Shown here one piece after another: positions 22,631 to 63,255 of a DNA stretch of 64,000 nt. Source of the stretch: Octopus sinensis (taxonomy: Eukaryota); contig NW_021832284.1 of the NCBI RefSeq assembly GCF_006345805.1, positions 68,738-132,737 of the forward strand. The letters are read 5' to 3'. The position numbers and the translations under genes were made by a program. Position 1 is the first letter of the stretch. Each line of letters begins with the position of its first letter. The notes under the pieces were generated by a model. It saw nothing but the letters and a program-made list of their open reading frames with translations, did not search any database and had not been told where the DNA came from.

Positions 22631-23439
22631 CCAAACACAGACAGATAACTACATTTTACTCTGAAAGAACCTTAAAAGATAAGAAATATAATGGTTAGCT
22701 CGGCTCTACGAGGAGGTGGTGATCGTTAGAACACCTTCGATCACAAGTCCACTCAGTCGAGTGAATTGCGATTAAGAAGAACAATGCAACTGTTAAATAA
22801 TTAATGCAATTGTTATATGAATAACTAATTTATTCACAAACTAATAATATCTAACGTGATTTTTTTAATTGTCTTCAATGTGTGCAGCGTGTAAAGTCCG
22901 TCTCAGAATTCACAATAGAAATACGGCTGCCCAATAATAATCCATTCTACTTGGAGCACAAGGCCTATAATTTGGGATACAAGGGACAAGTCGATTACAT
23001 TAACCTTAGTACTCAACTATTTGTTATTTCATCGACCCCGGTGCGCAACTGGTTGTTATTTCATCGACCCCGAATGGATAAAAGTCGATCTCGGCGGAAT
23101 TTGAACTCAGAACGTAAGGAAGAAAAAATGCTGCTAAACATTATACCAGTTTGCCACATTCGAATGTCAAATAACATCCTTTCTGCTAAAGGTAAAAGGT
23201 CTGAAACGTTGAGGGAGGGACTAGATGATTACAGCTGATACATATTCTGTAAACCACCGAAGGGCAAATGCAGCCTCGGCGGAACTTGATTTCACGAATA
23301 TCCAACAATATCGAGAGTAAACTTACCAACGTATACTGTGTCTTCGTCACCATACAAACCATGATGCTTTATAGCATGTTCGCAGATATGACATTGCTTT
23401 TTAGGAGCCTCTCCAGATGGTAACCGCACGAACACACAC

Positions 23440-26047: not shown

Positions 26048-26231
26048 CAGTGTGAACACATTTTCCGTTCTGAAGAATGAAATTTTCCTTACAAACACAG
26101 GCATATCTTCCTCTTTCAATTCCGCAGTGGCTGTTTTCACCACAAGGAGTGATATCTTCTGTTACGACTTCGTTACCAGGTTTACATATTTTCTTTGTTT
26201 TACAATCTGCTGATATAATTTCCTCATTAAC
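26048..26231 (-). CDS. Cys-rich TILa/EGF-like exon (VNEEIISADC...CGENSHC...CVCKENFILQNGKCVHT)
   Basis: ctacag/gtgagt sites, 184 nt, phase 0-1, Cys-rich. Confidence 0.85.
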
Positions 26232-26676: not shown

Positions 26677-26867
26677 CTTCATATATATCTTGTTGTCGAT
26701 ACAGCCGCATTCTGTTTCAGGTACACACTGTTCACCACTCAGAATAAAGCCTTGTCTACAAACACAACCTTGACTGGAACCTGTGCAATTTGGTGATCTA
26801 TCAGCGCACGAAGGTTGACAGCTGCTAGTCTTGTATTGGAACTCTTCCTTTTCCTTGCATTTCATCG
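26677..26867 (-). CDS. TIL domain exon (...SSCQPSC...GCVCRQGFILSGEQCVPETECGC...)
   Basis: TIL motif GCxCxxGF...CVPxxxCGC, 191 nt, phase 1-0. Confidence 0.9.
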
Positions 26868-27805: not shown

Positions 27806-28074
27806 GGCATTGTGATATTTCTCTCCAATTAACGAAAATTCCCACACTTTCGCATTCTGTAGCAAAACCTTCAATGATTCGACAGAAAACAGAGTGGTGG
27901 TTCGTAGGATCATTGTGATAACTACAGACATCGATTCTACAAGACTCCAAGTATTCTTCTAGATGCGAAGCTCCGATCTTTTCAATGCAGGCTTCAAAGA
28001 TTTTGTCATTCATTAAATCACATTCTTTTGTCTGCTCCTTTGAACAAGTCGAATTAACATCATTCACTTTGCAT
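27806..28074 (-). CDS. C8 domain exon (...FEAC...YLESCRIDVC...C...C...WREISQC)
   Basis: C8 Cys pattern and WR motif, 269 nt, phase 2-1. Confidence 0.9.
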
Positions 28075-29191: not shown

Positions 29192-29384
29192 TAAGCAAAA
29201 AAATACCTTTGTAATGAGAACCAAGGGTTCAAAATTCTACGGAAACGTTGTGGTAACAACAAACAAAATCAGGAGACATATCCGTCTAATGTAAATAATG
29301 TGAATAATCACAGATTAACGTGAAAACAGCTAAATCTTGATAATAAGACATAATACTGTGGCATATTCATTGCGCCATTTGATA

Positions 29385-30668
29385 CGGGGGGCGTTCAATA
29401 AGTAATGCCCCTGACCCACTTCCCATAGCAGTAGAGCAACGAAACTTTATTAGTCTTTTTCTACATAGGAACCACCCAGAGTTATGCATTTTTCCCATCG
29501 TTTGATGCAGCTCTGGAGACCATTTTTTGTAGAAGACACCAGCTTGGTCCTCCAACCTCGACGTGACTTCAGAAATCAAGACTGCATCATCTGGGAAACG
29601 CTTTCCTTTCAAAAACAACTTCATGGCTGGGAAGAGCTGAAAATCAGAGGGTGGAAGGTCAGGAGAGTAGGGGGGATGGGGGAGGAGTTCATAGCCGCAC
29701 GCCTGTGCTTCTGATCTGGCGACAAGCGAGTTGTGGACCGGAGCGTTGTCCTGCAGGAGGAGGATGCCTTTGCTGATCTTGCCCTGCCTCTTGATTTTGA
29801 TAGCTTCTCTTAATTTCCTCAAAAGTGAAGCATAATAGGCTCCTATAATTGTGGTACCCTTTGCCAGGAAATCTGTCATCACTACTCCGTCCTGGACCCA
29901 GAAGACTGTGAGCATGACCTTGCCAGCGGAGGGCTGAACCCTTGCCTTCTTTGGAGGAGGTGAGTCACGGTGCTTCAACTGCATTGATTGGGCTTTGGTC
30001 TCTGGATCATAGTGATGGACCCATGTTTCATCCTGTGTAATCAGTCTTTTGAAAAAGTTTGACTCATCTTCTTGGCACTTCTCCAAATTCATCCTCAAGC
30101 ACTCGACGCGTTCTTGCTTCTGGAAAGGTGTGAGCAACTTGGGAATCCATCTGACAGACACCTTTTGCATATGCAAATGGTCATAAATGATAGTTTCCAC
30201 AGACCCGGTACTAATTTTGACCTCATGGGCTATTTGGCGAATAGTTATGCGTCGAGCTTCTAAAATGTCAGCCTCAACTTGACGGACAGATGCCTCATCA
30301 ATGGCAGAAAGGGGCGACCAGATCTGGGAGCTGTTTCCACTGAGTTCCGACCATGTTTGAATTCACGATGCTAGCGTTTTACAAGGTCATATAATGGGGC
30401 ATCATCACCATAAGTTACTTTCATTTCATCAAAGTCTCCCGTGGTGTGCGTCCTTTCAAATACAAAAACCGGATCACTGCTCGACACTCAACAGTCTCCA
30501 TTTCACACTTGACTCAGTTCAAACACCTGTAAATCAGAAACCACAATTAGTTCAGAGCTGTAATTTGCCAATTAATCTATAGAGATATAAATAATTGCAC
30601 ATGCAAAATTTCAGCTAGATCAAACAAATGCAAGTGGGTCAGGGGCATTACTTATTGAACGTCCCTCG
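29385..30668 (-). mobile_element. Full-length mariner (DD34D) element with inactivated transposase
   Basis: TA TSDs, about 37-bp TIRs (cg.ggg.cgttcaataagtaatgcccctgacccactt), DETW, QDNA, YSPDLPPSDF. Frameshifts and a stop between ATG 30501 and about 29450. Confidence 0.95.
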
Positions 30669-30736: not shown

Positions 30737-31044
30737 TTTGTTTCGGGTTTATCACTGTCATCTTCAACTTGATAACTGGCACCAATTAAAGAAAATTTAT
30801 TTGCTTTCTGAGAAACATCTTCACCAGATTTCGGACGAAAGTCATCTTTTTCTCCGTTACAATCTCCACAGATTCCAGTCAGTTGATCGGCAAATATTGG
30901 TGGTAATGTAACAGTGACTCTATGTCTACCATCAAACATGATCTTCAAACCCCATTCAGTGGTAACTGTAATCCACCCGACAGAGTACGTGGCTGAAAAC
31001 TCTTTATAATTTCTTACGGGTAACGACTTCTCTTCTGAATTTAT
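30737..31044 (-). CDS. VWD domain exon b (...GLKIMFDG...TGICGDCNGEKDDF...)
   Basis: GICG-x-CNG-x2-DD motif, 308 nt, phase 0-2. Confidence 0.9.
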
Positions 31045-31964: not shown

Positions 31965-32222
31965 TTTGTGCTAATTTGAACTAAATTCAAATAGCCGTAT
32001 CTGCTAACGCAATTCATTTTGTCTTGCGTTTTATCTTTCCCAGCTTCCAGTGACTTTATGTTAAGTTTATATAAATACTTACCATTGCATGCTTTAGTTG
32101 AGAATGTCGATGATATACTCTGTAAGACATCAAAACTATTCACTGAAAATACATATTTCGAACTCGGCTCGCTACCAATTGCTTTGAGTTCGGTATTCGA
32201 AATCTTTTTCCCGACTCCAAAT
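31965..32222 (-). pseudogene. Duplicated 3' fragment of the VWA exon plus adjacent intron
   Basis: GVGKKISNTELKAIGSEPSSKYVF... is nearly identical to 34459-34597, and the 5' part is missing. Confidence 0.85.
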
Positions 32223-32474
32223 TTATACAGCATCATAATATTGTTTCGTTATGTTCAATATTACAAATATTTCTTTCCATAATTCTTTCTCTTAAGAAGT
32301 TTAAGGCTTACATTTCTTTCATTAAGTCCAAGATTTCGATTATCTTCGATTCGTTCCTTGGTTCCAGTTGTTAAGTGCGTGGCATTCGAAAATACAACGT
32401 ATCAAGCAGAATAATCTTTTGGATTCTTATACATTTACATAACTATAGGGTAAAGAGAGACAAAACGTACGTAC

Positions 32475-32722
32475 CAAGATTTTGTTAGCTGGCAACAGAC
32501 GAATTGTGAAACCAGTGAGTTTGACATCCACTAAACGTGTGCAAGATATACGGTTATTCCCTCGGTGTTCGTTCTTTACTTCAACAGAAAAGTAGGTATT
32601 ATTCGATCCGTTCTTAATAGTAGCCAGTGTATATTTGCATGTGCCCATGAAATGTATCAATTGTCCATCGAACGTATCATAGTGAAGGTCACCAGACACT
32701 TTACATATACATGGTTTCGAAG
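32475..32722 (-). CDS. VWD domain exon a (ASKPCICKVSGDLHYDTFDG...GTCKYTL...)
   Basis: GDxHYxTFDG...GTCxY VWD motif, 248 nt, phase 1-0. Confidence 0.9.
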
Positions 32723-33052: not shown

Positions 33053-33220
<168 letters not shown>

Positions 33221-34458: not shown

Positions 34459-35025
34459 CATTGCATGCTTTAGCTGAGAATGTCGATGATATACTCTGTA
34501 AGACATCAAAACTATTCACTGAAAATACGTATTTCGAACTCGGCTCGCTACCAATTGCTTTGAGTTCGGTATTCGAAATTTTTTTCCCGACTCCAATTGC
34601 GAATATCATAGTTCCACTCTTTTTCACCTTTTCAGCTGCTTTTACTGTCAAGACCTGATTATTTGAGTTTCCGTCTGTGATGACAACTGCAATATTCAAC
34701 ACATCTTTTCGGTCACCAGACATTGCAGTGAACGAAGAATCTTTAAGGTAATTTAAAGCGGCATAGGTGTGTGTCCAGCCTCCGATGTGAGCTATTCTGT
34801 CAATCGCTGTGTTTAAATCAAGGATATTCCTGAATTTATTCAAATTAAATTGGTTCTTTACATTGGTGCTAAATGTGATAATACCAACTTGGACAGCATT
34901 TGATGATATTGGAAAAGTTGAGACAAGTTTCTTGACAAAAGTTTTCATCACTAGAAAATCCTTTTTAGAAATGCTTCCAGAGTCGTCTAATACAAACATG
35001 ATATCTGCCACAGCATTTCCACACG
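34459..35025 (-). CDS. von Willebrand factor A (VWA) domain exon
   Basis: ADIMFVLDDSGS (MIDAS DxSxS), GGWTHT, VVITDG, IFAIGVG. 567 nt, phase 1-1, within ORF 34406..35119. Confidence 0.95.
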
Positions 35026-35138
35026 CTGAAACTAAAATGAAATAAAAATGTATTACAATAGTAATATATATATATCGAGAAGTATTATGTAAATAAATTG
35101 ATTTTCTTTGTTCACACACACCATTTTCTTTATATCAA

Positions 35139-36297: not shown

Positions 36298-36408
36298 ATG
36301 TATTACAGTAACTTCCAGAGTAACCAGGTTTACATTTACAGGTGAAACTATGTCCTTTCCTGATACATGTACCGCCGTTCTTACATGGTTTCGTATGGCA
36401 TGGATCGA
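36298..36408 (-). CDS. EGF exon 7 ([37 protein letters not shown])
   Basis: EGF Cys pattern, 111 nt, phase 1-1. Confidence 0.9.
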
Positions 36409-36591
36409 CTAGAGTATAAAAGAAATCGATGTTTTATTTCACAATCACATCTTTATTTACAACGGAATATAACAGAATTCGCATTTTGAATTTCCTGTCT
36501 AAACCTTTTACATATTTTCTCGATTTCTCTTTACTTTTTAAATCATTTTCTCCCGTATTCTTCCTGATTTGTAGCAAGAGAAATTAATTTT

Positions 36592-36623
<32 letters not shown>

Positions 36624-36874
36624 TATCATCATCATCATCATCATCATCATCGCCAGATGCGTTAAATGATGTAGCCAGTCATTGGGGTGCCACTAAAGAA
36701 ACTTTTATTTTCAGCCATCGCCACTTCGTAGTAGGTTCGTTGTGATGTGGACTGTCCAGTCCTTAACGTTGTCAAACCAGGAATTTCTATGTCTGTGTGT
36801 GTGTATATAAGTCAGGACGCCATGATAGATCGTTAGCTCCTACACACATTTTTTCTCTCCTTTTTTTCTGTGTA

Positions 36875-36912
36875 TCTTTCTGTCGAAGAGCGTAGGCTCG
36901 AAACGTAAAAGA
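36875..36912 (+). ncRNA. Minimal hammerhead-like motif with A6U core variant
   Basis: tcttt-CTGTCGA-A-gagc-gtag-gctc-GAAA-CG-TA-aaaga. A related copy lies at 48701-48735. Confidence 0.55.
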
Positions 36913-37000
36913 CTTTTTCTATTCCTGAGCGCTATACTAATACATTTGTTTGTTTGTACTCCACCTGCCTTCGTCTTTTGTTTACTTTCGAAAACTTTCC

Positions 37001-37050
<50 letters not shown>

Positions 37051-37085
37051 TATAATATATATATATTATAATATATATATATAAT

Positions 37086-37172
<87 letters not shown>

Positions 37173-38124
37173 ATATATATTATATATATATAATATATAT
37201 ATATATATATTATATATATAATATATATATATATAATATATATATATATATAAAATAGAGATAAAACCACTATTATGCAACTCAAACAGTAATAGACATA
37301 AACCAATACATAAATAACCAAGTGGTTTTATCTCTAATTCCTATTTTATATATTTATACTGTGAAATTTGATTTAATACTTAATTGAATTTTTCCCTGTA
37401 AATTTGGAGTTATACTCCCTAATATTATTATTAGTATTATATATATATATATATATAATATATATATATATATATTTGTATATATATATGTATACTTTTC
37501 TCGTCTAGGTTCAAGGAACGAAATTTTGAGGGAGTGGTTCTAGTCGATTACATCCACACCAGTACGCAACTGGTACTTAATTTATTGACCTCGAAAGGTT
37601 GAAGACCAGAGTCAACCTCGGTGCAACGAAAAGACAGACGAAAATCCTCTTAGCATTTCGTTCGGCGTGCTAAGTTGTAGATATATATATATATATAGTA
37701 TGAAGAAAATGGAAAGTAAAAATCAATTTATTTACATAATAGCAGTCAATTTCATGTCTCCTATGCAGGTTTCAATTCCTACCTTCATTCATATTTTCCA
37801 ATTAAATTGAATTTAAAAGGTAAAAATCACATTGTCGTGCAGTTACTGTTTACATCTCGTTCAGATATTTATTATTGCTATGAAATGAATAGATTTTACA
37901 TAATTTTACAAGATTCATTTTCATCCTTTTCAGAAGCAGAAAATAACAGTATGATGCAAGGTCAACAAAATTAAAACCAGCAGCTCCCCTAATCCCAATG
38001 AATGTCCCAAGGGGATCTATAATTTTGAGGGCCGCCAAATTTGGTCCCCACTCACACCCTATTTTTACTGCCAGCTAAACTAAATACAAATTATTGGCGA
38101 CCTAATCGGAGCAATAACAATGAA

Positions 38125-38442
38125 GGTACTACTTGAGAACCGTGGTCCCAGTGCGCGCACTCGCGTAGTCGCACATCCGCGCTAGCTAGTCGTGACTAGT
38201 CGATCCTACAACGACTACCTAGCAAAGTAAATAAAACACAAAATAAATAATTTTTTACACAAAGTAAATAATTTTTGTTAAACAAAGTAAATAAAACACA
38301 AAAACACATGTTAAATAATTTTTTCAAACAAAGTAAATAACACAAAAAAACACAAAGTAAGGATCGACTAGTCACGACTAGCTAGCGCGGATGCGCGAGT
38401 ACGCGAGTGCTCGCACCGGAACTACTGTTCTCAAGCAGTACC
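38125..38442. mobile_element. MITE with about 80-bp TIRs and 9-bp TSD (Mutator-like)
   Basis: ggtac...gtacc termini, TSD aacaatgaa at 38116-38124 and 38443-38451. Confidence 0.85.
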
Positions 38443-38703
38443 AACAATGAATTTCATACCATGAACTCACAGTGAGTATCCTAAAGAGTTTCAATTTCTG
38501 AAGGGCCGCTTAAATAGGTCCCCACTGACACCCGCAACTTTTGTGGGTAGGGAGTTTGGAATGGAACCTCGAATAATTAATACCAGGAAAATACATACAC
38601 AATGAACGTGTCCGAGACCACTACAGTACAGAAGTTATACGTCGCAAGGTTGGCTAGAAAGACGCCCGATTGGCAGCTTCAAGGCTGCTAATATTATACT
38701 TAC

Positions 38704-38817
38704 ATACAGTACAGCATATTCCGGAGTAACCAGGTCTGCATGTACAGAAGAATTTACGACCTCTCCTGAAACATGTCCTGCGGTTCTTAAACGATATCCT
38801 AAGACATGGATTTATCA
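38704..38817 (-). CDS. EGF exon 6, divergent (LINPCLRISFKNRRTCFRRGRKFFCTCRPGYSGICCTV)
   Basis: Open frame, 114 nt, phase 1-1, tacag/gtaagt. Cys2 is replaced by Phe. Confidence 0.7.
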
Positions 38818-39929
38818 CTGTATAAAAGAAATATGAGCCTTATTTCGCTGTCTTCTCTATATTCATATGGATATAACGATAGAATATCCTGTAACGAATG
38901 TTTATCTCTGTATATATTTATTTATTTCTCTTCATCTCTCTGAGTAAGAAAAATTATTGGATTTGTTTTTTAAATAATAATTTGCTATAACATCGAAAGT
39001 TAAAGCATAAAATTTTATACAAAATTATCTAACGAGAAACCAGCAAGAATCCGGATTTCGCAATTTTACCAACATTGCAGGGACGTTTCCACAGCTATTG
39101 ATACTCTTCCGTCGCTTTTAGCCCTATACAACTCTAGGAGGAGAAGCCTCCTCAAGAAGGAATTCTGCAGTTTTGTGGCTTATACGTTATGCCCATGTTA
39201 AGGAATATATGCAGAATGCTATTATGAAGCCATACAGCTTTCGTGGCTAATAACGATTATGCTTACATATATGTATATGTGTATGCGTACGTCTGTGTTT
39301 CGGTATGTGTGGTGTATGTGAGTGTGAGTGTGTATATGTATGTGTACTCTGAATTTTTTCTTTAAAAACAAAATCTGGGCTTCGGGTTTCAAAACAATTT
39401 GTAAATTTTCAAAATCTCTTTCTTAAACAAAAGCGTCACTCTTTGTTTTTAAGTGCGGACTGCAAAAGAAAATTGGACAAAAAAATCTATTCTGAGGCTG
39501 GGAGCCGAGATTAATAAATTTTCAAACATTTTCTTCCAATGAAAAGTTCCCCAAATCAGCATTTGAAAGGGTGTAAGGAAGAAAACTGAAGAATAATCGT
39601 CGCAATTGAGAAAATCCAACCTGTTTCGGAGTACTATGCTGAAAGTCCGCCAAGTCACCCAATTGCGAAAATTACACGGCAACTACGGCAGATTCAGTAA
39701 ATGCGAGTATGTGTATATATACGTGTATATTAGAGAGAGTAGCGACAGAGGGATGGGGATTCATTACGTGGATTAACACGCGAAGTTTCTCCCAATATAT
39801 TTCCATTAACCAAACCATTCAACCAAGCACCTTTCTTAATATGTATTGGCTCTTTAAATATACTTGTAAAACAAAGTCTATGATAAATCTATGTCTATAA
39901 ATGATAGCTATTTGTTATGTTATACTTAC

Positions 39930-40040
39930 ATATATTACAGTATCTTCCAGAGTAACCAGGTCTGCATTTACAGGTGAAACTACTTCCTTTCCTGATACAA
40001 AAACCACCGTTCTTACATGGTCTCCTATGGCATCGATTGA
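39930..40040 (-). CDS. EGF exon 5 (FNRCHRRPCKNGGFCIRKGSSFTCKCRPGYSGRYCNI)
   Basis: EGF Cys pattern, 111 nt, phase 1-1. Confidence 0.88.
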
Positions 40041-40625
40041 CTAGTGTATAAAATAAATATGAGCGTTATTCGACAGCGTTCTATATATTTATAAGTTTAT
40101 AACGATAAAAAAACGGTAAATAGAACGAAAGTTCTATTTACCGTTGTACTTATTGTTTATCTCTGTATATATTTAATTTCTTTCTCTTCATCTCTCTGAG
40201 TAAGAAAAATTATTGGATTTGTTTTTTAAATAATAAATTGCTATAACATCGAAAGTTAAAGCATAAAATTTTATCCAAAATTATCTACCGACAAACCAGC
40301 AAAAATCCGGATTTCGCAATGTTACCAACATTGCTCGGACATTTCCACAGCTATTGATACTCTTCCGTCGCTTTTAGCCCTATACAACTCTAGGAGGAGA
40401 GCCTCCTCAAGAAGGAATTCTGCAGTTTTGTGGCTTATACGTTATGCCCAAGTTAAGGAATATATGCAGAATGCTATTATGAAGTCATACATCTTTTGTG
40501 GCTAATAACGATTATGCTTACATATATGTATATGTGTATGCGTACATCTGTGTTTCGGTATATGTGGGTGTATGTGAGTGTGCATATGTGTGTGTGCTCT
40601 CTATTTGTGCGTGCGAGCGCGTGTA

Positions 40626-40669
<44 letters not shown>

Positions 40670-41084
40670 TTGATAGAAAGAAAGAAAAAACAAAGAAAGA
40701 TCCACAGACAGACTGCCAGACTGATAGATAAATACAAAGGGAAACACACAAACGGACAGACAGACAACCAAACAGACAGATAGACAGACAGACAAACAAA
40801 GAGACAGCCAGATAGATAGATAGATAGATTAGATAGATAGATAGATGGATAGATAGATAGATTAGATAGATAGATAGCAAGATAGATAGATAGATAGATA
40901 TATAGATAGATAGATAGATATAGATAGATAGATAGACAGATACATAAATAGATAGATAGATAGACAGATAGATAGATAGATACATAGATAGATAGATAGA
41001 TGGATGGATAGATAGACAGATAGATAGATAGATAGATAGATGGATGGATAGATAGACAGATACATAAATAGATAGATAGATAAC

Positions 41085-41377
41085 TTTCTCAATTGGTCAC
41101 ACAGGGGTGGACACAGAGGGGACAATACAAATGTAGAGCTTTTCTTTTCGGAGATGGAAAAGGAAAAAGAAAAAATAGGAAACAAATGTAAAATTTCGAT
41201 GAAAAGGGATCGTGTATCACAGAAGAAAAAAATTCTTTTATCAATTTTTCAAAGTAACAGACAAGATTAGGTTCATCAGTGGAAAGAAAAGTTTACAGAA
41301 AAGACCACGGTAACCTCAGGCAGGGAGTAAATAAACACATGAATGCAATGTACTCTCTCTTTCTCTCTCTCACTCTC

Positions 41378-41443
<66 letters not shown>

Positions 41444-41810
41444 ACGATTTACAGGATCATGCTCAATGTGGTTTCGTCTTTCGCACGCACCATCTTTGCT
41501 ACATTCACCCACCTTTTTGAAACTTTCACGAAACAAATCTTGCCTCCTCATTCTCACCTTCCTTTTGAAGTGGTACTTGAAAAAGATGATGAGCGATTGG
41601 CCAGAGAGATAAGTATTTCTCTCTAATCTTTTCGCTTAAGTCCAGCACACACATTCTTTCGCCATAGCCACAAGTACGATGAAAACTGCCTTGCTTTCCT
41701 GGTTGAGGGAATGGAGCCGTGCAACACTCACAACAGTCTCGGCCGACAGGCGGACATGACCCACACATGACAGCAGCCGTTAGGCATAAACCCGCATGTC
41801 CGAAATGGTC
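41085..41810 (-). mobile_element. Shorter duplicate of the Tx1/L1 fragment at 43780-45330
   Basis: Near-identical to 43780-44520. Confidence 0.85.
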
Positions 41811-41948
41811 CCCAAAACTAAGCATGGTACATTCATACACCTTGCTTTTCATTAAAGCAAATTCCTTTCTATGAATGTATAACATTCCAAGCTCCTTTAA
41901 TATATTTATAAAAGGACACCTTAGGATTATTTTTAGTGTTATACTTAC

Positions 41949-42059
41949 ACGAACGACAGTATCGTCCCATATAACCACGTCGGCATTTACAGATGAATCT
42001 ACGTCCTCTCCTGATACATGCGCCACCGTTCTTACAAGGTTTCTTATAGCATAGATTGA
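41949..42059 (-). CDS. EGF exon 4 (FNLCYKKPCKNGGACIRRGRRFICKCRRGYMGRYCRS)
   Basis: Near-identical to EGF exon 2, 111 nt, phase 1-1. Confidence 0.88.
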
Positions 42060-42746
42060 CTTGTATATAAAAGACTTAAAATTACAATTTCACAATCTTG
42101 TGTATAATGGAGGAATTCCATTTTACAAACTTCCTGTCTAGTGCTTTTAATTACTTTCTTTAAATAAAAAATATTAACTACGTGTTTCAAAACAATTTGT
42201 AAATATTCAAAGTCTTTTTCTTAAGCAAAAGCGTCACTCCTTGTTTTTTAGTGCGTACTGCAAACAGAAAATTGGACAAAAAAAATCTGTCCTGAGGCTG
42301 GGAGCCGAGATTCATAAATTTTCAAACATTTTTTTCCTATGAAAAGTTCCCCAAATCATCATTTGAAAGAGTGTAAGGAAGAAAAACTGAAGATTAACCG
42401 TCACAATTGAGAAAATTCAACCTGTTTCGGTGTACTATTCTGAAAGTCCGCCAAGTCACTCAATTGCTAAAATTACCCGGCAACGACGGAAAATTCAGTT
42501 AATGCGAGTATGTGTATATATACGTGTATATTAGAGAGAGGGGCGACAGAGGGATGGGGATTCATTACCTGGATTAACACGCGAAGTTTCTCCCAATATA
42601 TTTTCATTAACCAAGCCATTCAACCAAGCACCTTTCTTAATATGAATTCATGAGAAACCTACCTTGGCTCTTAAATATACTTGTAAAACAACATCTATGA
42701 TAAATCTATGCCTATAAATTATGGCTATTGGTTATGTTATACTTAC

Positions 42747-42857
42747 ATATATTACAGTATCTTCCAGAGTAACCAGGTCTGCATTTACAGGTGAAACTAC
42801 GTCCTTTCCTGATACACAAACCACCGCTCTTACATGGTCTCCTATGGCATGGATTGA
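42747..42857 (-). CDS. EGF exon 3 (FNPCHRRPCKSGGLCIRKGRSFTCKCRPGYSGRYCNI)
   Basis: EGF Cys pattern, 111 nt, phase 1-1. Confidence 0.88.
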
Positions 42858-43437
42858 CTAGTGTATAAAATAAATATGAGCCTTATTCGACAGTGTTCTA
42901 TTTATTTATAAGGGTATAACGATAGAATATCCTTTAACGAAAGTTCTATTTACCGTTGTACTTATTGTTTATCTCTGTATATATTTATTTTCTTTCTCTT
43001 CATCTCTCTGAGTAAGAAAAATTATTGGATTTGTTTTTTAAATAATAATTTGCTATAACATCGAAAAGTAAAGCATAAATTTTATCCAAAATTATCTACT
43101 GAGAAACCATCAAAAATCGGGATTTCGCAATTTTACCAACGTTGCAGGGACGTTTCCACAGCTATTGATACTCTTTCGTCGCTTTTAGCCCTATACAACT
43201 CTAGGAGGAGAAGCCTCCTCAAGAAGGGATTCTGCAGTTTTGTGGCTTATACGTTATGCCCATGTTGAGTAATATATGCAGAATGCTATTATGAAGCCAT
43301 ACAGCTTTCGTGGGTAATAACGATTATGCTTACATATATGTATATGTATATGCGTACATCTGTGTTTCGGTATATGTGGGTGTATGTGAGTGTGCATATG
43401 TGTGTGTGCTCTGTATTTGTGTTTGCGAGAGCGTGTA

Positions 43438-43479
<42 letters not shown>

Positions 43480-43573
43480 ATATATGCGTAGATAGAAAGA
43501 AAGAAAAAACAAAGAAAGATCGACAGACAGACTGCCAGACTGATAGATAAATACAAAGGGAAACACACAAACG

Positions 43574-43621
<48 letters not shown>

Positions 43622-43680
43622 AAGAGACAGACAAATAGATAGATAGACAGATACATAAATAGATAGATAGATAGATAGAG

Positions 43681-43778
<98 letters not shown>

Positions 43779-43779
43779 T

Positions 43780-44083
43780 TTGATAACTTTCTTTATTGGA
43801 AACACATGGTTTGGACACAGAGTGGACAATACAAATGCAGAGCTTTTCTTTTCGGAGATGGAAAAGGAAAAAGAAAAAGAAGGAAACAAATGTAAAATTT
43901 TGATCAAAAGGGATCGGGAAAAAAAAGCGATCAAATGGGATCGCGTATCACAGAAGGAAAAAAAAATTTTATCAATTTTCTCAAAGTAACAAACAAGATT
44001 AGGTTCATCAGTGGAAAGAAAAGTTTACAGAAAAGACCACGGTAACCTCAGGCAGGGAGTAAATAAACACATGAATGCAATGT

Positions 44084-44156
<73 letters not shown>

Positions 44157-45330
44157 TACGATTTACAGGATCATGCTCAATGTGGTTTCGTCTTTCGCAC
44201 GCACCATCTTTGTTACATTCACCCACCTTTTTGAAACTTTCACGAAACAAATCTTGCCTCCTCATTCTCATCTTCCTTTTAAAGTGGTACTTGAAAGAGT
44301 TGATGAGGGATTGGCCAGAGAGATAAGTATTTCTCTCTAATCTTTGCGCTTGAGTCCACCACACACATTCTTTCGCCATAGCCACAAGTACGATGAAAAC
44401 TGCCTTGCTTTCCTGGTTGAGGGAAGGGAGCGGTGCAATATTCGAAACAGTCTCGGCCGACAGGCGGACTTGTCCCACACATGACAGCAGCCGTTCGGCA
44501 TAATCCCACAGGTCCGAAATGGATGGACACTGCACGAATGCGTGCAGAACGGTTTCGTCGCTCCGGTCGCATCTCGAGCAAGTAGGTCCAGTGTGTTTCG
44601 AACCGTGCCTGTAGAGCTTATCCTGAACAGGTACTGCTTCTCGATAGCACTACCAGGCCAAGGATCTTTGGTGATTGTCCATAGGTCCAGGTCCGAATGT
44701 TGTCCTGAACAGGCGGGTCAGGTGTCTCTCGTCGACGCCGAGATTCTGCCCGAGAATGTCGTCGCACCTCCCCTCCACCAATCCTCTATAACACGTCTTT
44801 GTTCTAATGAAGTCGAACAAATTTGATCCCGGACGGCAGAGTTACTGAAGAGCAACCTGACACTCGCGGTGCCATTCGCCTAGCCTCGGTCTCTGTTTGA
44901 TCCACGATTGTAGTTCGGCCAAGGAGACGAGCTGCGGAAACGCGTGTCGCACAAATGGCATCCATACCTGTTCACCGTCGTCTATGAAGTGCCAGAGACG
45001 TCGAGGTCTCAGCGCATGTCTGCGCATCATCAACCACGGCATGCCTAGCCCTCCATTTAGCGGGTGATGACAGCAAATGGATCGCCTAACCATCGGAACG
45101 CTTCCCTTCCACATGAAGCGGAAGAGTATGCGTTCCAGTTTCGTAATGGTAGGGTCGGGACAAGGCACGACGGTCAGACGGTACTCGATGACGGATGCGA
45201 TGTACGCGTTCGCCAACTCCTCCCGACCTTTTACGGATAGCTTCCTCTCAGATTTTTGCTGGGTGAGAGTGGCCACCCTAGTTGTTATTTCGCCCCAATT
45301 CTTCTCCATTTGGAGGTCCGGACCATACAT
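43780..45330 (-). mobile_element. Tx1/L1-clade LINE ORF2 3' fragment
   Basis: LSVKGR...LFRFMWKG...GGLGMP motifs (ORF 44842..45396), zinc-finger region, and 3' UTR ending at (GATA)n. Confidence 0.88.
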
Positions 45331-45499
45331 AGCGAGGAAAATTACGTTTTGAAATAAAGTCCAATTAATCCCCAAAACTAAGCAATGTACATTCATACAC
45401 CTTGCTTTTCATTAAATCAAATTCCTTTCTATGAATGTATAACTCCTTTAATATATTTATAAAAGGACACCTTAGGATTATTTTTAGTGTTATACTTAC

Positions 45500-45610
45500 A
45501 CGAACGACAGTATCGTCCAATATAACCACGTCGGCATTTACAGATGAATCTACGTCCTCTCCTGATACATGCGCCACCGTTCTTACAAGGTTTCTTATAG
45601 CATGGATTCA
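45500..45610 (-). CDS. EGF exon 2 (LNPCYKKPCKNGGACIRRGRRFICKCRRGYIGRYCRS)
   Basis: EGF Cys pattern, 111 nt, phase 1-1. Overlaps ORF 45429..45611. Confidence 0.9.
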
Positions 45611-46310
45611 CTTGTATATAAAAGAATTAAAATTAGAATTTCACAATCTTGTGTATATTTACAATGAAGTAATGGAGGAATTCCATTTTACAAATTTCCT
45701 GTCTAGTGCTTTTAATTATTTTCTTTAAAAAAAAAATGTGAGCTTCGGGTTTCAAAACAATTTGTAAATTTTCAAAATTTTTTTCTTAAACAAAAGCGTC
45801 ACTCTTTGTTTTTAATTGCGGACTGCAAAAAGAAAATTGGACAAAAAAGTCTGTCCTGAGGCTGGGAGCCGAGATTCATAAATTTTCAAACATTTTCTTC
45901 CAATAAAAATTTCCCCAAATCATCATTTGAAAGGGTGTAAGGAAGAAAACTGAAGAATAACCATCGCAATTAAGAAAATCCAACCTGTTTCGGTGTACTA
46001 TTCTGAAAGTCCGCCAAGTCACTCAATTGCGAAAATTACCCGGCAACGACGGAAAATTCAGTTAATGCGAGTATGTGTATATATACATCTATATTAGAGA
46101 GGGGGTTGACAGAGGGATGGGGGTTCAGGACGTCGAATAACACACAAAGTTTCTACCAAGATATTTCCATTAAACGAGCCATTCAACCTATCACCTTTCT
46201 TAATATGTATTCATGAGAAACCTGTCTTGGCTCTTTAAATATACTTGTAAAACAAAATCTATGATAAATCTATGCCTATAAATTATGGCTACTTGTTATG
46301 TTATACTTAC

Positions 46311-46421
46311 ATATATTACAGCATTTTCCAGAGTAACCAGGTCTGCATTTACAGGTAAATCTATGTCCTTTCCTGATACATGTGCCGCCATTCTTACATG
46401 GTCTCCTATAGCATGGATTGA
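46311..46421 (-). CDS. EGF exon 1 ([37 protein letters not shown])
   Basis: EGF Cys pattern plus one extra Cys, 111 nt, phase 1-1, ag/gtaagt. Confidence 0.9.
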
Positions 46422-48002: not shown

Positions 48003-48126
48003 CAATTTCGTAAACACTGTTTGCCAAGAATCCGCCACACGTCTGCCCTGACTTGCATTTCATATTACAATTATGGGCTCCACCATATTTGGAATACCTT
48101 CCGCTACAAAAACATTGTTTTCCATA
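48003..48126 (-). CDS. Exon 4, WSC domain C-half (YGKQCFCSG...CNMKC...[10 protein letters not shown])
   Basis: QCFC, CNMKC and CGG...NSVY WSC motifs, tttcag/gttagt sites, phase 0-1. Confidence 0.9.
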
Positions 48127-51198: not shown

Positions 51199-51326
51199 CT
51201 GTAATCCAGCGTATCTGTCTTTCTTCCAACTGCAAATTTTTAAGCATTCCTCAATAGAATGTACTGCTCCAGAACCCCAGTGCATGACTCGAGGAAAAAA
51301 GAAATCCCTAAAACAACCAATATATT
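51199..51326 (-). CDS. Exon 3, WSC domain N-half (KYIGCFRD...EECLKICSWKKDRYAGLQ)
   Basis: YIGCF-D and C-x3-C...YAGLQ WSC motifs, tttcag/gtaaac sites, phase 1-0. Confidence 0.88.
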
Positions 51327-55642: not shown

Positions 55643-55695
55643 TAGATATTAAACTTGCTTTTTAAAAATTTAACATATATTACCATCAAGTTGTT

Positions 55696-55822
<127 letters not shown>

Positions 55823-55824
55823 GC

Positions 55825-55870
<46 letters not shown>

Positions 55871-55911
55871 TATATGCGTGTGTGTGTGTGTGTATATATA
55901 TATATACTTAC

Positions 55912-55950
55912 TGGCACCTTCACTGGCTGGCAGAATAATTGCAGGGAAAG
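55912..55950 (-). CDS. Exon 2 ([13 protein letters not shown], end of signal peptide)
   Basis: tttcag acceptor, gtaagt donor, 39 nt, phase 1-1, small residues at the predicted cleavage site. Confidence 0.75.
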
Positions 55951-56063
55951 CTGAAATAAAGAAACCAGAATGTTAGAAATGAACAGAACAAAAGACGCGT
56001 TCTTTGTAAGAAATCTACAATGAAAATAAGATCTTTTGTTGAATAGTGAAGATTTGATCTTAC

Positions 56064-56103
56064 CAATTATTGCAAGCAGTTTGAATGCTCCTACGTTAAA
56101 CAT
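56064..56103 (-). CDS. Secreted WSC-EGF-VWA-VWD protein, coding exon 1 ([13 protein letters not shown], signal peptide start)
   Basis: ATG at 56103, donor G|gtaaga, phase 1. It joins exon 2 to give a hydrophobic signal peptide [26 protein letters not shown]. Confidence 0.75.
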
Positions 56104-56123
56104 GTTGCTCTGTGAATACTCGG

Positions 56124-56163
56124 CAAATGATGTACGTTCCTCATATCTTCACATCTATATATA
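56124..56163 (-). promoter_or_regulatory. Putative TATA box and initiator (also in the duplicate at about 57045-57084)
   Basis: TATATATAG about 30-35 nt upstream of Inr-like TCATTTG, which lies about 25 nt before the ATG. Confidence 0.45.
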
Positions 56164-56503
56164 GAGGGATGTATATATGCGTGTGTGTGTGTGTGTGTGT
56201 GGTGTGTGTGTGTGTGTGTGTGCGTGTGTGCCTGTGTGCGTGTGTGAATGTAAGCAAGTGTATGTATTTGTATAAGCGTGTATATGGCCTGGATTTTTAT
56301 ACGTGTTTATCTCTATGTATATATGTGTGTGTGTGTGTGTGTATTTGTATATATGTGTGTATTTGTATATATGTGTGTATATCTATATACATAAAAGCCA
56401 ACATGCTTGCATACATACGTGCATACGAGTTTGTTTTTTTATATCACCGAAATTGGCATGTTCATACATCAATCGAATTATATGTGCGCGTGTGGATTTG
56501 TAT

Positions 56504-56579
<76 letters not shown>

Positions 56580-56743
56580 ATGTATGTATGTATGTGTGTA
56601 TGTATGTATATATGTATGTATGTATATATGTATGTATGTATATATGTATGTATGTATATGTATGTATGTATATATGTATGTATGTATGTTGTATGTATGT
56701 ATGTGTATGTATGTATATATGTATGTATGTATATATGTATGTA

Positions 56744-56801
<58 letters not shown>

Positions 56802-56832
56802 TGTGTGTGTGTGTATATATATATATACTTAC

Positions 56833-57024
56833 TGGCACCTTCACTGGCTGGCAGAATAATTGCAGGGAAAGCTGAAATAAAGAAACCAGAATGTTAGAAA
56901 TGAACAGAACAAAAGACGCGTTCTTTGTAAGAAATCTACAATGAAAATAAGATCTTTTGTTGAATAGTGAAGATTTGATCTTACCAATTATTGCAAGCAG
57001 TTTGAATGCTCCTACGTTAAACAT
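56833..57024 (-). other. Duplicate copy of exon 1 (56985-57024) and exon 2 (56833-56871)
   Basis: Same sequence as 55912-56103 at offset 921. Confidence 0.85.
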
Positions 57025-57420
57025 GTTGCTCTGTGAATACTCGGCAAATGATGTACGTTCCTCATATCTTCACATCTATATATAGAGGGATGTATATATG
57101 CGTGTGTGTGTGTGTGTGTGTTGTGTGTGTGTGTGTGTGTGTGTGCGTGTGTGCCTGTGTGCGTGTGTGAATGTAAGCAAGTGTATGTATTTGTATAAGC
57201 GTGTATATGGCCTGGATTTTTATACGTGTTTATCTCTATGTATATATGTGTGTGTGTGTATTTGTATATATGTGTGTATTTGTATATATGTGTGTATATC
57301 TATATACATAAAAGCCAACATGCTTGCATACATACGTGCATACGAGTTTGTTTTTTTATATCACCGAAATTGGCATGTTCATACATCAATCGAATTATAT
57401 GTGCGCGTGTGGATTTGTAT

Positions 57421-57476
<56 letters not shown>

Positions 57477-58101
57477 ATATATATATATATATGTATGTAT
57501 GTATGTTTGTATGTATGTATGTATGTATGTATATATGTATGTATGTATATATGTATGTATGTATATGTATGTATGTATATATGTATGTATGTATGTATGG
57601 TATGTATGTATGTGTATGTGTGTATGTATGTATATATGTATGTATGTATATATGTATGTATGTATTATGTATGTATGTATATATGTATGTATGTGTGTGT
57701 GTGTGTGTGTTTTATGTGTGTTGAAGTGTATGAGTATATATGTGCGTGCATGCACGTGTACGTGTGTGCATGTGTGCATTATTATTCACAGGTTTCTTAC
57801 ATTGGATTCCTATAAAAGAAAAAAAGAAAACAAGAAAATAAACTTAATACCAACAGGTGTTTTCTTTTTCATTGTTTGAAATCACGTTTGAAAACATTGT
57901 CAATATTTATTTCAGTTCTTACAAATAACCATCAATATTCTAACACAACTTTCAATAAGTGGACTGTTGTTTTAACGCATTTTTAGAACCTCAACGATTA
58001 AGTACACGCCTTAAAGCATCTGCTGCCATTTTACTTAATCACGATCAGAACTTGTTTTAAATCATAATACATAACATAAAGACATATCGATATTCTTATC
58101 C

Positions 58102-59059: not shown

Positions 59060-61310
59060 GGATTACATAGAGAGTATTTTGCGTAGGATATGAGCAGTTC
59101 CCATGAGCACTATCTTTTGAATTTCTGCCATTTTGGGGTTTCCTGGTATCTGAGTTAGGTAGCTATCATTCCCAGGGCACCTATGACAACAGGTATTGTT
59201 TTAGTCTTCAGCTTCCACATTTTTGCTGATTTCTATTTCAAGATCTTTATATTTGCTCAGTTTTTGGTAGGTCTTGACAGATACGTTTATATCGATTGGG
59301 ACAGTCATATCAATGAGGAGGCATGTTCTTTGTCTGAAGTCTTTCAATATGATGTCTGGCCTATTTGCATCTATCTTCCTGTCAGTTTGAATGGTGAAGT
59401 TCCAGAGGAGTGAGATGTTGTCATTTTCAAGCACTGAAGGTGGATTGTGCTCCCACCAGTTTTTTTCATGGGGCAAATCCAGGTTTTTGCAAATTACCCA
59501 GTGAATATATTGTGCAGCTCTATCATGCCTGTTGAGGTACTCTGTAGGCGCTAGAAGACTGCATTTGGAGACAACATGATCAATGGTTTCATTTTGTTGT
59601 CGGCATACACGACATGTTGGGCTACTGCCGTTCTTTAATATGTTGGCCTGGTAGTTTCTTGTTGGTAGGCATTGATCTTGAGCTGCTATGATAAACCCCT
59701 CTGTTTCAGATTTTAAGCCAGAGGCCATTAGCCATTGATGGGTCAGGGCTTTGTCAATATCTGCATTATTCGCTCTCTTTGGGTATTTGCCATATAGAGG
59801 TTTTTCTTGCCATTTATTATTCAGAATATCTAAGGCCGCAGTTTTGGCACGGGTTTTCATGCGCCTAGCTTTTTCTGTGCTTGTTTCTTGTATGTCTATC
59901 TCTGATTCCGAAATTGGTTGTATTCGGAATTCACTTAGATATTCCTTTGCCTGTTTTGTGACTGAGTATGATGCTTTCTTGTTTTCATGTTTTGAGACAA
60001 GTTTTAACATCCAGTCCTCAGAGCTTTTCAGGTAGGTGTCTAGGCCAATTGTAGCAATCTTCATTGTTATTGCCAGTTGCAAAAGACCACGGCCTCCCTC
60101 TTTTCTTGGCAGATAAAGTCGTTCTGTATCTTCCTTAGGGTGGTGCATTCTATGCATTGTCAACAGTTTTCTTATTTTTCTGTCGAGCTGACATATTTCA
60201 GTAATTGACCAGTTAACAATATTGAAACTGTAAGTCACGACTGGTATCGCTTCGATCCTGTTTCTTGCATTCAGCTCTGTCTTGAGTATTGCTCTCACTC
60301 TTCGATAGCATTCTCTCCTGATCCTTTCCTTCATCTCTGAATGCCTTATTCCGTTCCCTTCAATTACCCCTAGGTACTTGTAGCTCTCCGCTGGGTCTAG
60401 TTCTTTTATGACATTCTGCTGGTCAAGGTTAACGTTAGATGTTTCTGTCATTTTTCCTTTGATAAAGGTAGCTTTTGCACATTTATCAAGGCCGAATTGC
60501 ATTCTGATGTCGTCACTGAATTGTTTGACTATCGCTAGTAAGCCCTTGAGTTGTTGATCATTTTTTGCAAAAAGCTTTAAATCATCCATGTAAATGAGAT
60601 GATTTATATTTTTATCAAACATTTTATACCCGTACTGCGCGTCATTGAGCAGCTTCGAGAGAGATATTAAAGATAAACAAAAGAGGAGTGGTGACAGTGA
60701 GTCACCCTGGAAAATGCCACACGAAATTTTTACATCACCAGCATTTAGGGATTCATTGTCACTGTTCAGAGTTAGTGTGGTTCTCCATGATCTCATATTT
60801 ACAGTCAAGAAGTTTCGCAGAGTAGGTGCTATCTTATACATTTCCAGGCATTTCCTAATCCAGCCATGTGGTAGGCTATCAAAAGCCTTTTTATAGTCTA
60901 TCCAGGCTATTGATAAGATTTTGTGTCGTTTGTGACAATCTTCTAAGATCATCTTATTGATGAGTAGTTGGTCTTTACAGCCGTAGGATCCACGTTTACA
61001 TCCTTTCTGTTCATTAGGGAATACGCTGCTGTCTGTTAAAAAACTATAGATATATTCCGTCAGGACAGATGTTAGCGTTTTGTACATAGTTGTTAAGCAG
61101 GTTATGGGTCTATAGTTTTTTGGTTCATTTGTTTCTTCACTTTTTGGAAGCAGGAATGTTAACCCATTAACTAGCCAAGGAGGCATCCTACTAGGGTGTT
61201 GCAAAACATCATTGTACAGTTCTGTTAGCAGTTCATGGCTCTCTGGGAAGGCATTCAGCCAGAAGTTAGGAATTTTATCCTTTCCTGGAGACTTCCATTT
61301 GCTTGACCTT
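59060..61310 (-). mobile_element. R4/Dong-type RLE non-LTR retrotransposon (5'-truncated)
   Basis: 667-aa ORF with RT (YRPI, QGDSLSP, YMDD), CCHC finger, RHD and PD-(D/E)xK nuclease. Bounded by (TAA)n. Confidence 0.95.
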
Positions 61311-61319
61311 ATTATTATT

Positions 61320-61355
<36 letters not shown>

Positions 61356-61371
61356 ATTATTATTATTATTA

Positions 61372-61864: not shown

Positions 61865-63255
<1,391 letters not shown>

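What the first reader, a model, noticed from the sequence alone, without database searches (positions are those of the whole stretch)
36298..46421. Extremely cationic EGF array resembling mussel foot protein-2-type repeats, paired with an acidic C-terminal region
Seen: by my count the seven EGF units hold 66 Lys/Arg and one Asp (e.g. CIRRGRRFICKCRRGYIGRYC), with recurrent Tyr and no Ca-binding acidic consensus, while the C8 and tail exons are Glu/Asp-rich. Known: mussel plaque protein mfp-2 consists of Lys/Tyr-rich tandem EGF repeats, and cationic disulfide-rich modules often bind membranes or polyanions. Inference: this could be a charge-polarised self-assembling or coacervating adhesive, or an antimicrobial arm tethered to a mucin-like scaffold behind a glycan-binding WSC head.
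Basis: partly seen in the sequence, partly recalled or inferred. Interest (0 to 1): 0.72.

Follow-up and report, generated by a model that had tools for sequence, protein, structure and literature searches.

The report
Octopus mucus protein with polycationic arm
This octopus gene encodes a spliced, likely secreted protein whose seven EGF repeats are far more positively charged than other octopus EGF domains, and the arm likely works as an electrostatic clamp that cross-links negatively charged slime components, rather than as a relative of mussel glue protein.

Summary
The count is exact: the seven EGF exons encode 25 Lys + 41 Arg, one Asp, no Glu (net +65). They lie in an intact 17-exon minus-strand gene, signal peptide-WSC-EGFx7-VWA-VWD-C8-TIL-tail, matching Octopus sinensis proteins. 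The bias is rare: 1 of 228 other octopus EGF cores reaches +7, against 6 of 7 here. The arm is not skipped: EGF7-VWA-VWD joins appear in 4 of 4 runs. The interpretation mostly fails. The repeats group with octopod paralogues, Tyr is ordinary (2.1 per repeat), there is no mucin PTS domain, the C-terminus is only -13 (whole protein +70), and paralogues with cationic EGFs have basic C-termini. The C-terminus is an FCGBP-type D assembly. Two of its peptides occur in O. vulgaris skin mucus, but they are shared with an EGF-less paralogue. Best reading: an FCGBP/matrilin-like mucus protein whose disulfide-braced polycationic rod likely binds polyanions in trans. Similar hypercationic EGF rods occur in abalone and a soft coral. 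No function was tested.

The parts
56064..56103 (-). Exon 1, start codon and first half of a hydrophobic leader (second identical copy at about 57024-56986)
   Evidence: tblastn of XP_036355134, splice sites; 55692-56814 duplicated at 56605-57710. Signal-peptide status judged by eye; no predictor was run
55912..55950 (-). Exon 2, end of leader (second copy near 56878)
51199..51326 (-). WSC domain, first half
   Evidence: PF01822 E 1.9e-10 on the whole domain
48003..48126 (-). WSC domain, second half
   Evidence: covered by contigs ending at the exon limits in X1, X2 and X5
46311..46421 (-). EGF1, net +9, seven Cys
   Evidence: covered in X1; absent from the WSC-EGF2 join in X5 record 25
45500..45610 (-). 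EGF2, net +12
   Evidence: exact exon in X1 and X5 contigs
42747..42857 (-). EGF3, net +9
41949..42059 (-). EGF4, net +12, 98% nucleotide identity to EGF2
39930..40040 (-). EGF5, net +9
38704..38817 (-). EGF6, net +9, second Cys replaced by Phe, extra Cys before the last
36298..36408 (-). EGF7, net +5, holds the single Asp
   Evidence: its 3' end is the loose end upstream of VWA in 4 of 4 runs
34459..35031 (-). VWA domain with intact DxSxS motif, net +7
   Evidence: PF00092 E 9e-42, RNA contigs
33053..33193 (-). Truncated VWD pseudo-exon with an in-frame TGA; carries GDPH; skipped in RNA
   Evidence: VWA joins the intact exon instead
32475..32722 (-). VWD first half; GDLH in place of the GDPH self-cleavage motif
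32084..32233 (-). Stray duplicate of the VWA 3' end (intronic remnant)
30737..31044 (-). VWD second half, net -5; encodes a peptide seen in O. vulgaris skin mucus (shared with paralogues)
27806..28074 (-). C8 domain, net -7
   Evidence: PF08742 E 1.6e-12
26677..26867 (-). TIL domain, net 0
   Evidence: PF01826 E 9e-8
26048..26231 (-). Cys-rich tail of the FCGBP-type unit (weak EGF-like hit), net -1; ends at a phase-1 donor that RefSeq reads through to a stop two codons on; encodes the second shared mucus peptide
23325..23408 (-). Remnant of the terminal PAN-domain exon of paralogue LOC115209189

Best explanation
The window encodes a spliced octopus protein of WSC, seven strongly cationic EGF repeats, VWA and one FCGBP-type D assembly, which is likely secreted into mucus or an epithelial coat, where the EGF rod would bind polyanions on other molecules and so likely cross-link the gel. 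Shown: gene structure, charge, rarity of the charge, splicing of arm to VWA and VWD, FCGBP-type C-terminus. Inferred: secretion (hydrophobic leader), mucus location (from shared peptides), a stiff rod displaying about +9 per repeat, and partners in trans (sulfated or acidic glycoconjugates, acidic EGF-less paralogues from the same gene cluster, microbial surfaces). WSC (glycans) and VWA (metal-dependent protein binding) would add specific contacts; the extra Cys in EGF1 and the odd Cys count (31) after VWA could allow intermolecular disulfides.
For: 961 codons without a stop over 17 GT/AG exons. Net +65, with XBBXBX heparin-type motifs in 6 places (the motif is recalled). 1 of 228 background octopus cores at +7 or more. 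The cationic repeat is kept in O. bimaculoides and O. sinensis paralogues (mean +6.6 and +5.4) and more weakly in Argonauta (+3.7), with dN/dS 0.31 between window and chr3 repeats (105 non-independent pairs). EGF7-VWA-VWD joins in 4 of 4 runs from 3 studies. The best PDB match of the near-identical paralogue's D assembly is FCGBP (E 1e-112), a mucus protein (PMC8267560, abstract). Two peptides encoded here are in O. vulgaris skin mucus (PMC10138644 Table S1). Precedent for a polycation as cohesive agent blocked by heparin: flatworm Mlig-ap1, which also has VWD-C8-TIL and EGFs (PMC6410801, passages).
Against: No binding was measured. Both mucus peptides are shared with other models, and the third, unique peptide belongs to the EGF-less paralogue type, not to this copy. 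Six probes for EGF- or VWA-derived peptides found nothing in the 3,654 rows held of 5,937 spectra. The tissue of the RNA runs is not given. The test for avoidance of Asp/Glu among substitutions was not significant (P 0.09), and dN/dS within the window's own repeats is 0.67. [quoted passage not shown]
Confidence: 0.5

Rival explanations
1. The arm is a tethered antimicrobial or microbe-trapping module: the cationic disulfide-rich repeats bind LPS or teichoic acids, WSC binds fungal or algal glycans, and the D assembly anchors the protein in mucus.
For: 25% K/R with no acidic residues; WSC head; family peptides in skin mucus, which the paper describes as a defence barrier (PMC10138644 abstract); repeat number varies between copies (7 vs 9 exons); two RGRR dibasic sites could release fragments.
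Against: Only 15% ILVFWM residues, low for membrane-inserting peptides (own knowledge); seawater salt weakens purely electrostatic killing (own knowledge); no activity data. Trapping without killing would overlap with the best explanation.
Confidence: 0.2
2. It is an internal extracellular-matrix adaptor of matrilin type (VWA plus EGF) that binds heparan or chondroitin sulfate proteoglycans in skin, cartilage or basement membrane, and reaches mucus samples only by shedding.
For: VWA+EGF architecture; the scaffold C11288 paralogue is named matrilin-2; the mucus table also lists cellular and blood proteins such as hnRNP and hemocyanin; heparin-type motifs.
Against: The C-terminus is FCGBP-type; no coiled-coil oligomerisation tail is evident in the sequence.
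Confidence: 0.13
3. It is an mfp-2-like Dopa adhesive or cement (for example egg-string cement or sucker cuticle) that uses Tyr/Dopa-cation synergy.
For: Tandem non-Ca EGFs with pI 10.15 against 9.5 for mfp-2 (PMC9999432 table); 7 Tyr-K/R adjacencies; Pvfp-5beta, a Lys/Tyr two-EGF protein, coacervates without Dopa (PMC9314366 passages); octopus eggs have an EGF-repeat tether protein and an uncharacterised cement (PMC10336842, parts 2-3 read).
Against: Tyr content is ordinary; no closer likeness to Pvfp-5 than to Notch; no row named as a Mytilus mfp-2 among the 120+120 best hits; octovafibrin peptides map to a different, near-neutral array on C18.
Confidence: 0.1
4. The protein self-assembles head to tail or coacervates through its own acidic C-terminal region.
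For: A real gradient from +65 to -13. In O. vulgaris, adjacent models hold about ten such acidic units (CAI9719089, CAI9719090; net -58 for the latter), so a longer, more balanced form may exist.
Against: This copy is +70 overall; three relatives with cationic EGFs have basic D assemblies (+11, +12, +15), and acidic D assemblies also occur without any cationic arm in a chiton (-4 to -12) and in the EGF-less paralogue.
Confidence: 0.07

Closest known systems
FCGBP (IgGFc-binding protein) / zonadhesin-like D-assembly proteins
   Same: VWD-C8-TIL-tail unit aligns end to end with FCGBP repeats (PDB 8rde); family peptides in mucus; paralogues carry tandem units with GDPH.
   Different: One unit only in this copy, GDLH instead of GDPH, and an N-terminal WSC-EGF7-VWA head that FCGBP lacks.
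Flatworm Mlig-ap1 (Macrostomum lignano cohesive protein)
   Same: Lectin-type head, VWD-C8-TIL, EGF array and a strongly K/R-rich part; inhibited by heparin (PMC6410801 passages).
   Different: There the charge sits in separate KR regions of over 3,600 aa and the 17 EGFs are Ca-binding; here the charge is on the EGF fold itself and a VWA is present. No sequence comparison was made.
Mussel mfp-2 and Pvfp-5beta
   Same: Basic tandem disulfide-bonded EGF repeats.
   Different: mfp-2 is a 45 kDa, 11-EGF plaque protein with 5 mol% Dopa (PMC9999432 passages); this protein is about 105 kDa, Arg-dominated and multidomain, its EGFs group with octopod paralogues, and Dopa is unknown.
Octovafibrin (Octopus bimaculoides egg tether)
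   Same: Octopus tandem non-Ca EGF array with the same Cys spacing.
   Different: C-type lectin-EGF29-C-type lectin (PMC10336842); its counterpart lies on C18 with mean core charge +0.9.
Matrilin-like (VWA+EGF) proteins of gastropod glue, and limpet VWD/EGF mucus proteins
   Same: Same domain toolkit in molluscan mucus (PMC11178922 and PMC7333891, passages); limpet P-vulgata_4 has a VWD plus basic C-terminal repeats.
   Different: No hypercationic EGF array is described in the passages read; slug-glue primary papers were not held.
Haliotis rufescens LOC124110407 and a Xenia sp. 755-aa protein (both uncharacterised)
   Same: Hypercationic EGF rods: 34 repeats at +12 between VWA domains; 10 repeats at +7 to +9.
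   Different: No VWD-C8-TIL; different repeat spacing (abalone) or flanking domains (coral); probably convergent (inferred).

Membership tests
mfp-2 (mussel plaque matrix protein) | Protein made essentially of 11 tandem EGFs, about 45 kDa | tested here: not met
   7 EGFs within 961 aa with WSC, VWA, VWD, C8, TIL; definition from PMC9999432
mfp-2 (mussel plaque matrix protein) | Basic tandem EGF repeats | tested here: met
   pI 10.15 against 9.5
mfp-2 (mussel plaque matrix protein) | Sequence descent from mfp-2-type EGFs | tested here: inconclusive
   No authentic mfp-2 was retrieved. Nearest relatives are octopod paralogues (support 0.91 on 32 columns); Pvfp-5 scores 27.6 bits against 44 for a Notch1 EGF
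mfp-2 (mussel plaque matrix protein) | About 5 mol% Dopa and location in an adhesive plaque | not testable with these tools
   Tyr is 5.8 mol% of the arm, ordinary for EGFs
FCGBP / zonadhesin-like | VWD-C8-TIL-(tail) D assembly | tested here: met
FCGBP / zonadhesin-like | Many tandem D assemblies | tested here: inconclusive
   One in this copy; three on C3 at 23.72-23.74 Mb and about ten over two adjacent O. vulgaris models; true 3' end unresolved
FCGBP / zonadhesin-like | GDPH autocleavage motif | tested here: not met
   GDLH in the spliced exon; GDPH only in the skipped pseudo-exon and in paralogues
Gel-forming mucin | PTS domain | tested here: not met
   S+T+P at most 26% in any 50-aa block
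Calcium-binding (Notch/fibrillin-type) EGF array | Acidic Ca-binding consensus | tested here: not met
   1 Asp and 0 Glu in 260 aa; no EGF_CA hit at E 0.01
Matrilin-like | VWA with metal-site motif plus EGFs | tested here: met
   DDSGS at residue 386, PF00092
Matrilin-like | C-terminal coiled-coil oligomerisation domain | tested here: not met
   The C-terminus is a Cys-rich D assembly; judged from domain content, no coiled-coil predictor run
Octovafibrin | C-type lectin ends and matching peptides | tested here: not met
   Peptide motifs map to C18 loci L058-L062; no C-type lectin hit
Cationic antimicrobial peptide | Killing activity and amphipathic surface | not testable with these tools
   15% ILVFWM; no model obtained

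The most novel reading that the evidence does not exclude
One octopus gene cluster encodes both halves of a two-component complex coacervate for slime: a polycation built from folded EGF repeats (this gene, +65) and acidic FCGBP-like polyanions (EGF-less paralogues, about -8 to -15 per unit, with a near-identical leader), while abalone and a soft coral independently evolved the same hypercationic EGF rod, making it an unrecognised convergent module of marine mucus.
Probability: 0.17. Interest if true: 0.72.

Novelty: new variant of a known kind. Interest (0 to 1): 0.43.

Why it matters
Basic EGF repeats are known from mussel glue, and polycationic cohesive regions from flatworm glue, but a folded EGF rod at about +9 per repeat fused to an FCGBP-type mucus unit did not turn up in my ten paper searches (an accession search gave 0 full-text papers). 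It offers a small, expressible module for testing how cephalopod mucus gains cohesion or holds microbes in seawater, names a candidate acidic partner from the same cluster, and points to uncharacterised abalone and coral proteins with the same design. The domain toolkit itself is familiar and the gene is annotated in RefSeq, so interest is moderate until a function is shown.

Tried and rejected
mfp-2 retrieval: no row named as a Mytilus mfp-2 among the best 120 of 1594 or 120 of 1059; automatic 'adhesive plaque matrix protein 2' names from limpet, coral and priapulid appear, and the limpet one has cores of -2 to +1. ESM Atlas gave only generic EGF clusters under 0.9. No RNA holder is listed on record (runs are 'RNA?' or '?'); splicing is inferred from joins at exon limits. 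X16 had no cover over WSC, EGF1 or EGF2; no conclusion drawn. The AlphaFold job on alignment A1 had not finished, so no model or fold search is reported. No complex prediction was sent, since charge-driven association is not what it scores. The Asp/Glu-avoidance test was not significant. Octovafibrin identity rejected. Reading-frame artefact rejected: RefSeq/CAI models of paralogues translate the same exons in a shifted acidic frame (N-termini of P0022, P0023, P0030), but here the phase-1 GT/AG chain and the RNA joins fix the Cys-rich frame. Papers not held: JBC 2010 mfp-2 paper and two slug-glue papers. Searches of earlier scan findings returned nothing.
Full report
Identity and gene model. 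The VWA exon is 100% identical to Octopus sinensis XP_036355134 (LOC115229549) and 99% to O. vulgaris CAI9719089. The window is the last 64 kb of unplaced contig C8755, 132,737 bp. Mapping by tblastn and splice sites gives 17 minus-strand exons, all GT/AG, 961 codons without a stop: leader, WSC, EGF1-7, VWA, VWD, C8, TIL and a Cys-rich tail. Pfam supports EGF, VWA and VWD and WSC, C8 and TIL. The D assembly of the near-identical paralogue P0029 matches FCGBP best among 12 PDB sequences. The VWA keeps its DxSxS motif; the VWD has GDLH in place of the GDPH that is cleaved in FCGBP (PMC8267560, abstract and outline read). There is no PTS domain.

The observation. For background I took loci around hits of an EGF2 search (92 matches) and of PF00008 (150 of 1208 candidates scored); this is a sample, not the whole genome, and it leans towards EGFs like the query. 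After setting aside 24 cores from the family's own cluster, 228 unique cores average +0.6 (SD 2.1), 7 reach +5 and 1 reaches +7; the window's cores are +9, +11, +9, +11, +8, +9 and +6. In other taxa 8 of 2054 cores (236 proteins) and 2 of 1449 cores (68 of 146 proteins) reach +7. The acidic end is weaker than claimed: VWD second half -5, C8 -7, TIL 0, tail -1; the mature chain is +70.

Is the arm spliced in? No run is on record as RNA, but contigs stop at exon limits and continue into the next exon. On the VWA exon, 4 of 4 runs from 3 studies have a loose end equal to the 3' end of EGF7 on one side and to the start of the intact VWD exon on the other, skipping the broken VWD pseudo-exon. X16 and X17 carry about 500 further bases upstream, of which only the first 30 were shown. 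In X5 one contig joins the second WSC exon directly to EGF2, without EGF1, while X1 covers EGF1, so repeat use varies. These reads cannot be assigned to one copy, and tissues are not given.

Copies and family. The 76-kb unit recurs on C8755 and C9304 at 99.6-99.9% identity; those copies have nine EGF exons instead of seven. This is either a very recent tandem array or assembly redundancy; the VWA exon occurs at 100% in three places, none on a chromosome. RefSeq XP_036354931 appears to fuse two of these copies (inferred). A paralogue cluster on C3 at 23.65-23.86 Mb holds LOC115209189 with 15 cationic EGF exons ahead of its VWA, an EGF-less gene with a near-identical leader and three GDPH-bearing D units, and a damaged copy 98% identical to window 33105-10535. 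O. bimaculoides and Argonauta hians have the same architecture with mean core charge +6.6 and +3.7. Pooled dN/dS is 0.31 between window and C3 repeats and 0.67 within the window; a test for avoidance of acidic residues gave P 0.09. The charge is thus a conserved octopod family trait that is strongest in Octopus, but selection on charge itself is not shown.

Against the mfp-2 reading. In a FastTree of 301 cores of 32 residues (40 sampled from each large set; the abalone repeat left out for its different spacing; no authentic mfp-2 available), the smallest clade with all seven window repeats has 38 tips, all from octopod family members, support 0.91. The alignment is short and Xenia repeats fall close by, probably through composition. 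A profile of the seven repeats ranks mussel Pvfp-5 31 of 123 PDB hits. Tyr per core is 2.1, against 0.9-2.2 in eleven of the twelve comparison sets with three or more cores listed. mfp-2 is an 11-EGF, 45 kDa, pI 9.5 protein with 5 mol% Dopa (PMC9999432, passages). The octopus egg-tether protein octovafibrin (PMC10336842, parts 2-3 and supplement passages) maps to a near-neutral array on C18. The likeness to mfp-2 is therefore an analogy of basic EGF arrays, not membership.

Against self-neutralisation. Relatives with cationic EGFs have basic D assemblies (+11, +12, +15), while acidic ones occur without a cationic arm in a chiton and in the EGF-less paralogue. Polarity within one chain is not the conserved feature; the cationic arm is. 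One opening remains: adjacent O. vulgaris models carry about ten acidic units downstream of the same leader and VWA, and the window's tail exon ends at a phase-1 donor compatible with another VWD exon, so a longer chain may exist.

Where it acts. [quoted passage not shown] Two peptides are encoded in the window but shared with paralogues; the third carries a variant found in the EGF-less paralogue and in O. vulgaris models, not in this copy. Six probes for EGF or VWA peptides found nothing; the arm gives 56 tryptic pieces, 17 of them 7 residues or longer, and trypsin likewise missed the K/R regions of Mlig-ap1 (PMC6410801, passages). The unseen rows may bear on this. Mucus location is thus shown for the subfamily and inferred for this protein.

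Mechanism. I favour (0.5) a mucus or surface-coat cross-linker whose disulfide-braced polycationic rod binds polyanions in trans, aided by WSC and VWA contacts and possibly by spare cysteines. Rivals are a tethered antimicrobial or trapping arm (0.2), an internal proteoglycan-binding matrix adaptor (0.13), a Dopa adhesive (0.1) and self-coacervation (0.07). Nothing functional was tested, and no structural model was obtained.

Novelty. The domain toolkit is that of known molluscan mucus and adhesive proteins (PMC7333891, PMC11178922, PMC12817120, passages). The hypercationic folded EGF rod on an FCGBP-type unit did not appear in ten paper searches, and abalone LOC124110407 (7 VWA, 34 EGFs at +12, VWA) and a Xenia protein (10 EGFs at +7 to +9) suggest repeated origin. 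Verdict: real, spliced, rare and testable, but a new variant of a known kind; interest 0.43.

Noticed in passing
P0277, Haliotis rufescens LOC124110407: Seven identical basic VWA domains, then 34 identical EGF repeats of net +12, then a VWA; an even more extreme cationic EGF rod. The perfect identity of the repeats may be an assembly effect.
   Followed up: partly
P0052, Xenia sp.: Ten EGF repeats at +7 to +9 between two Trp/Cys-rich domains without a Pfam hit.
   Followed up: partly
G000:C3:23,722,000-23,751,000 (L027-L030): EGF-less paralogue: near-identical leader, then three acidic VWD-C8-TIL units with GDPH; carries the unique mucus peptide variant.
   Followed up: partly
G000:C8755 and C9304: A 76-kb unit repeated at 99.6-99.98% identity, with 7 or 9 EGF exons per copy; true tandem array or assembly redundancy is unresolved. 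One extra EGF exon lacks two cysteines.
   Followed up: partly
G000:C18:3,495,000-3,545,000 (L058-L062): EGF array matching octovafibrin peptides: the likely O. sinensis egg-tether gene.
   Followed up: partly
G000:C3:139,226,481 (L097): The only non-cluster EGF core at +8 lies beside a VWA 50% identical to this one; possibly an outlying family member.
   Followed up: no
G000:C3:23,950,000-24,140,000 (L040-L053): Neighbouring arrays of at least 85 near-neutral EGF exons interspersed with related VWA exons.
   Followed up: no
P0022, P0023, P0030, P0031 N-termini: Public models of LOC115209189 translate cationic EGF exons in a shifted frame, giving a false acidic repeat.
   Followed up: partly
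window 33053-33193, 32084-32233, 23325-23408, 55692-57710: Remnants of unequal crossing over: broken VWD exon, VWA fragment, PAN-exon remnant and duplicated leader exons; the block shared with C3 begins inside the broken VWD exon (33105).
   Followed up: partly
window 32693-32722, runs X16 and X17: Both contigs stop exactly 30 bases into the VWD exon, as expected where an assembly graph branches; may reflect another exon splicing to the same acceptor.
   Followed up: no
window 29367-30362, 59201-61405, 62364-63176, 44008-45408, 17864-20091: Mobile-element remnants in the ORF lists: a mariner-like transposase in the VWD-C8 intron and reverse-transcriptase or endonuclease-like frames (labels recalled, not searched).
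   Followed up: no
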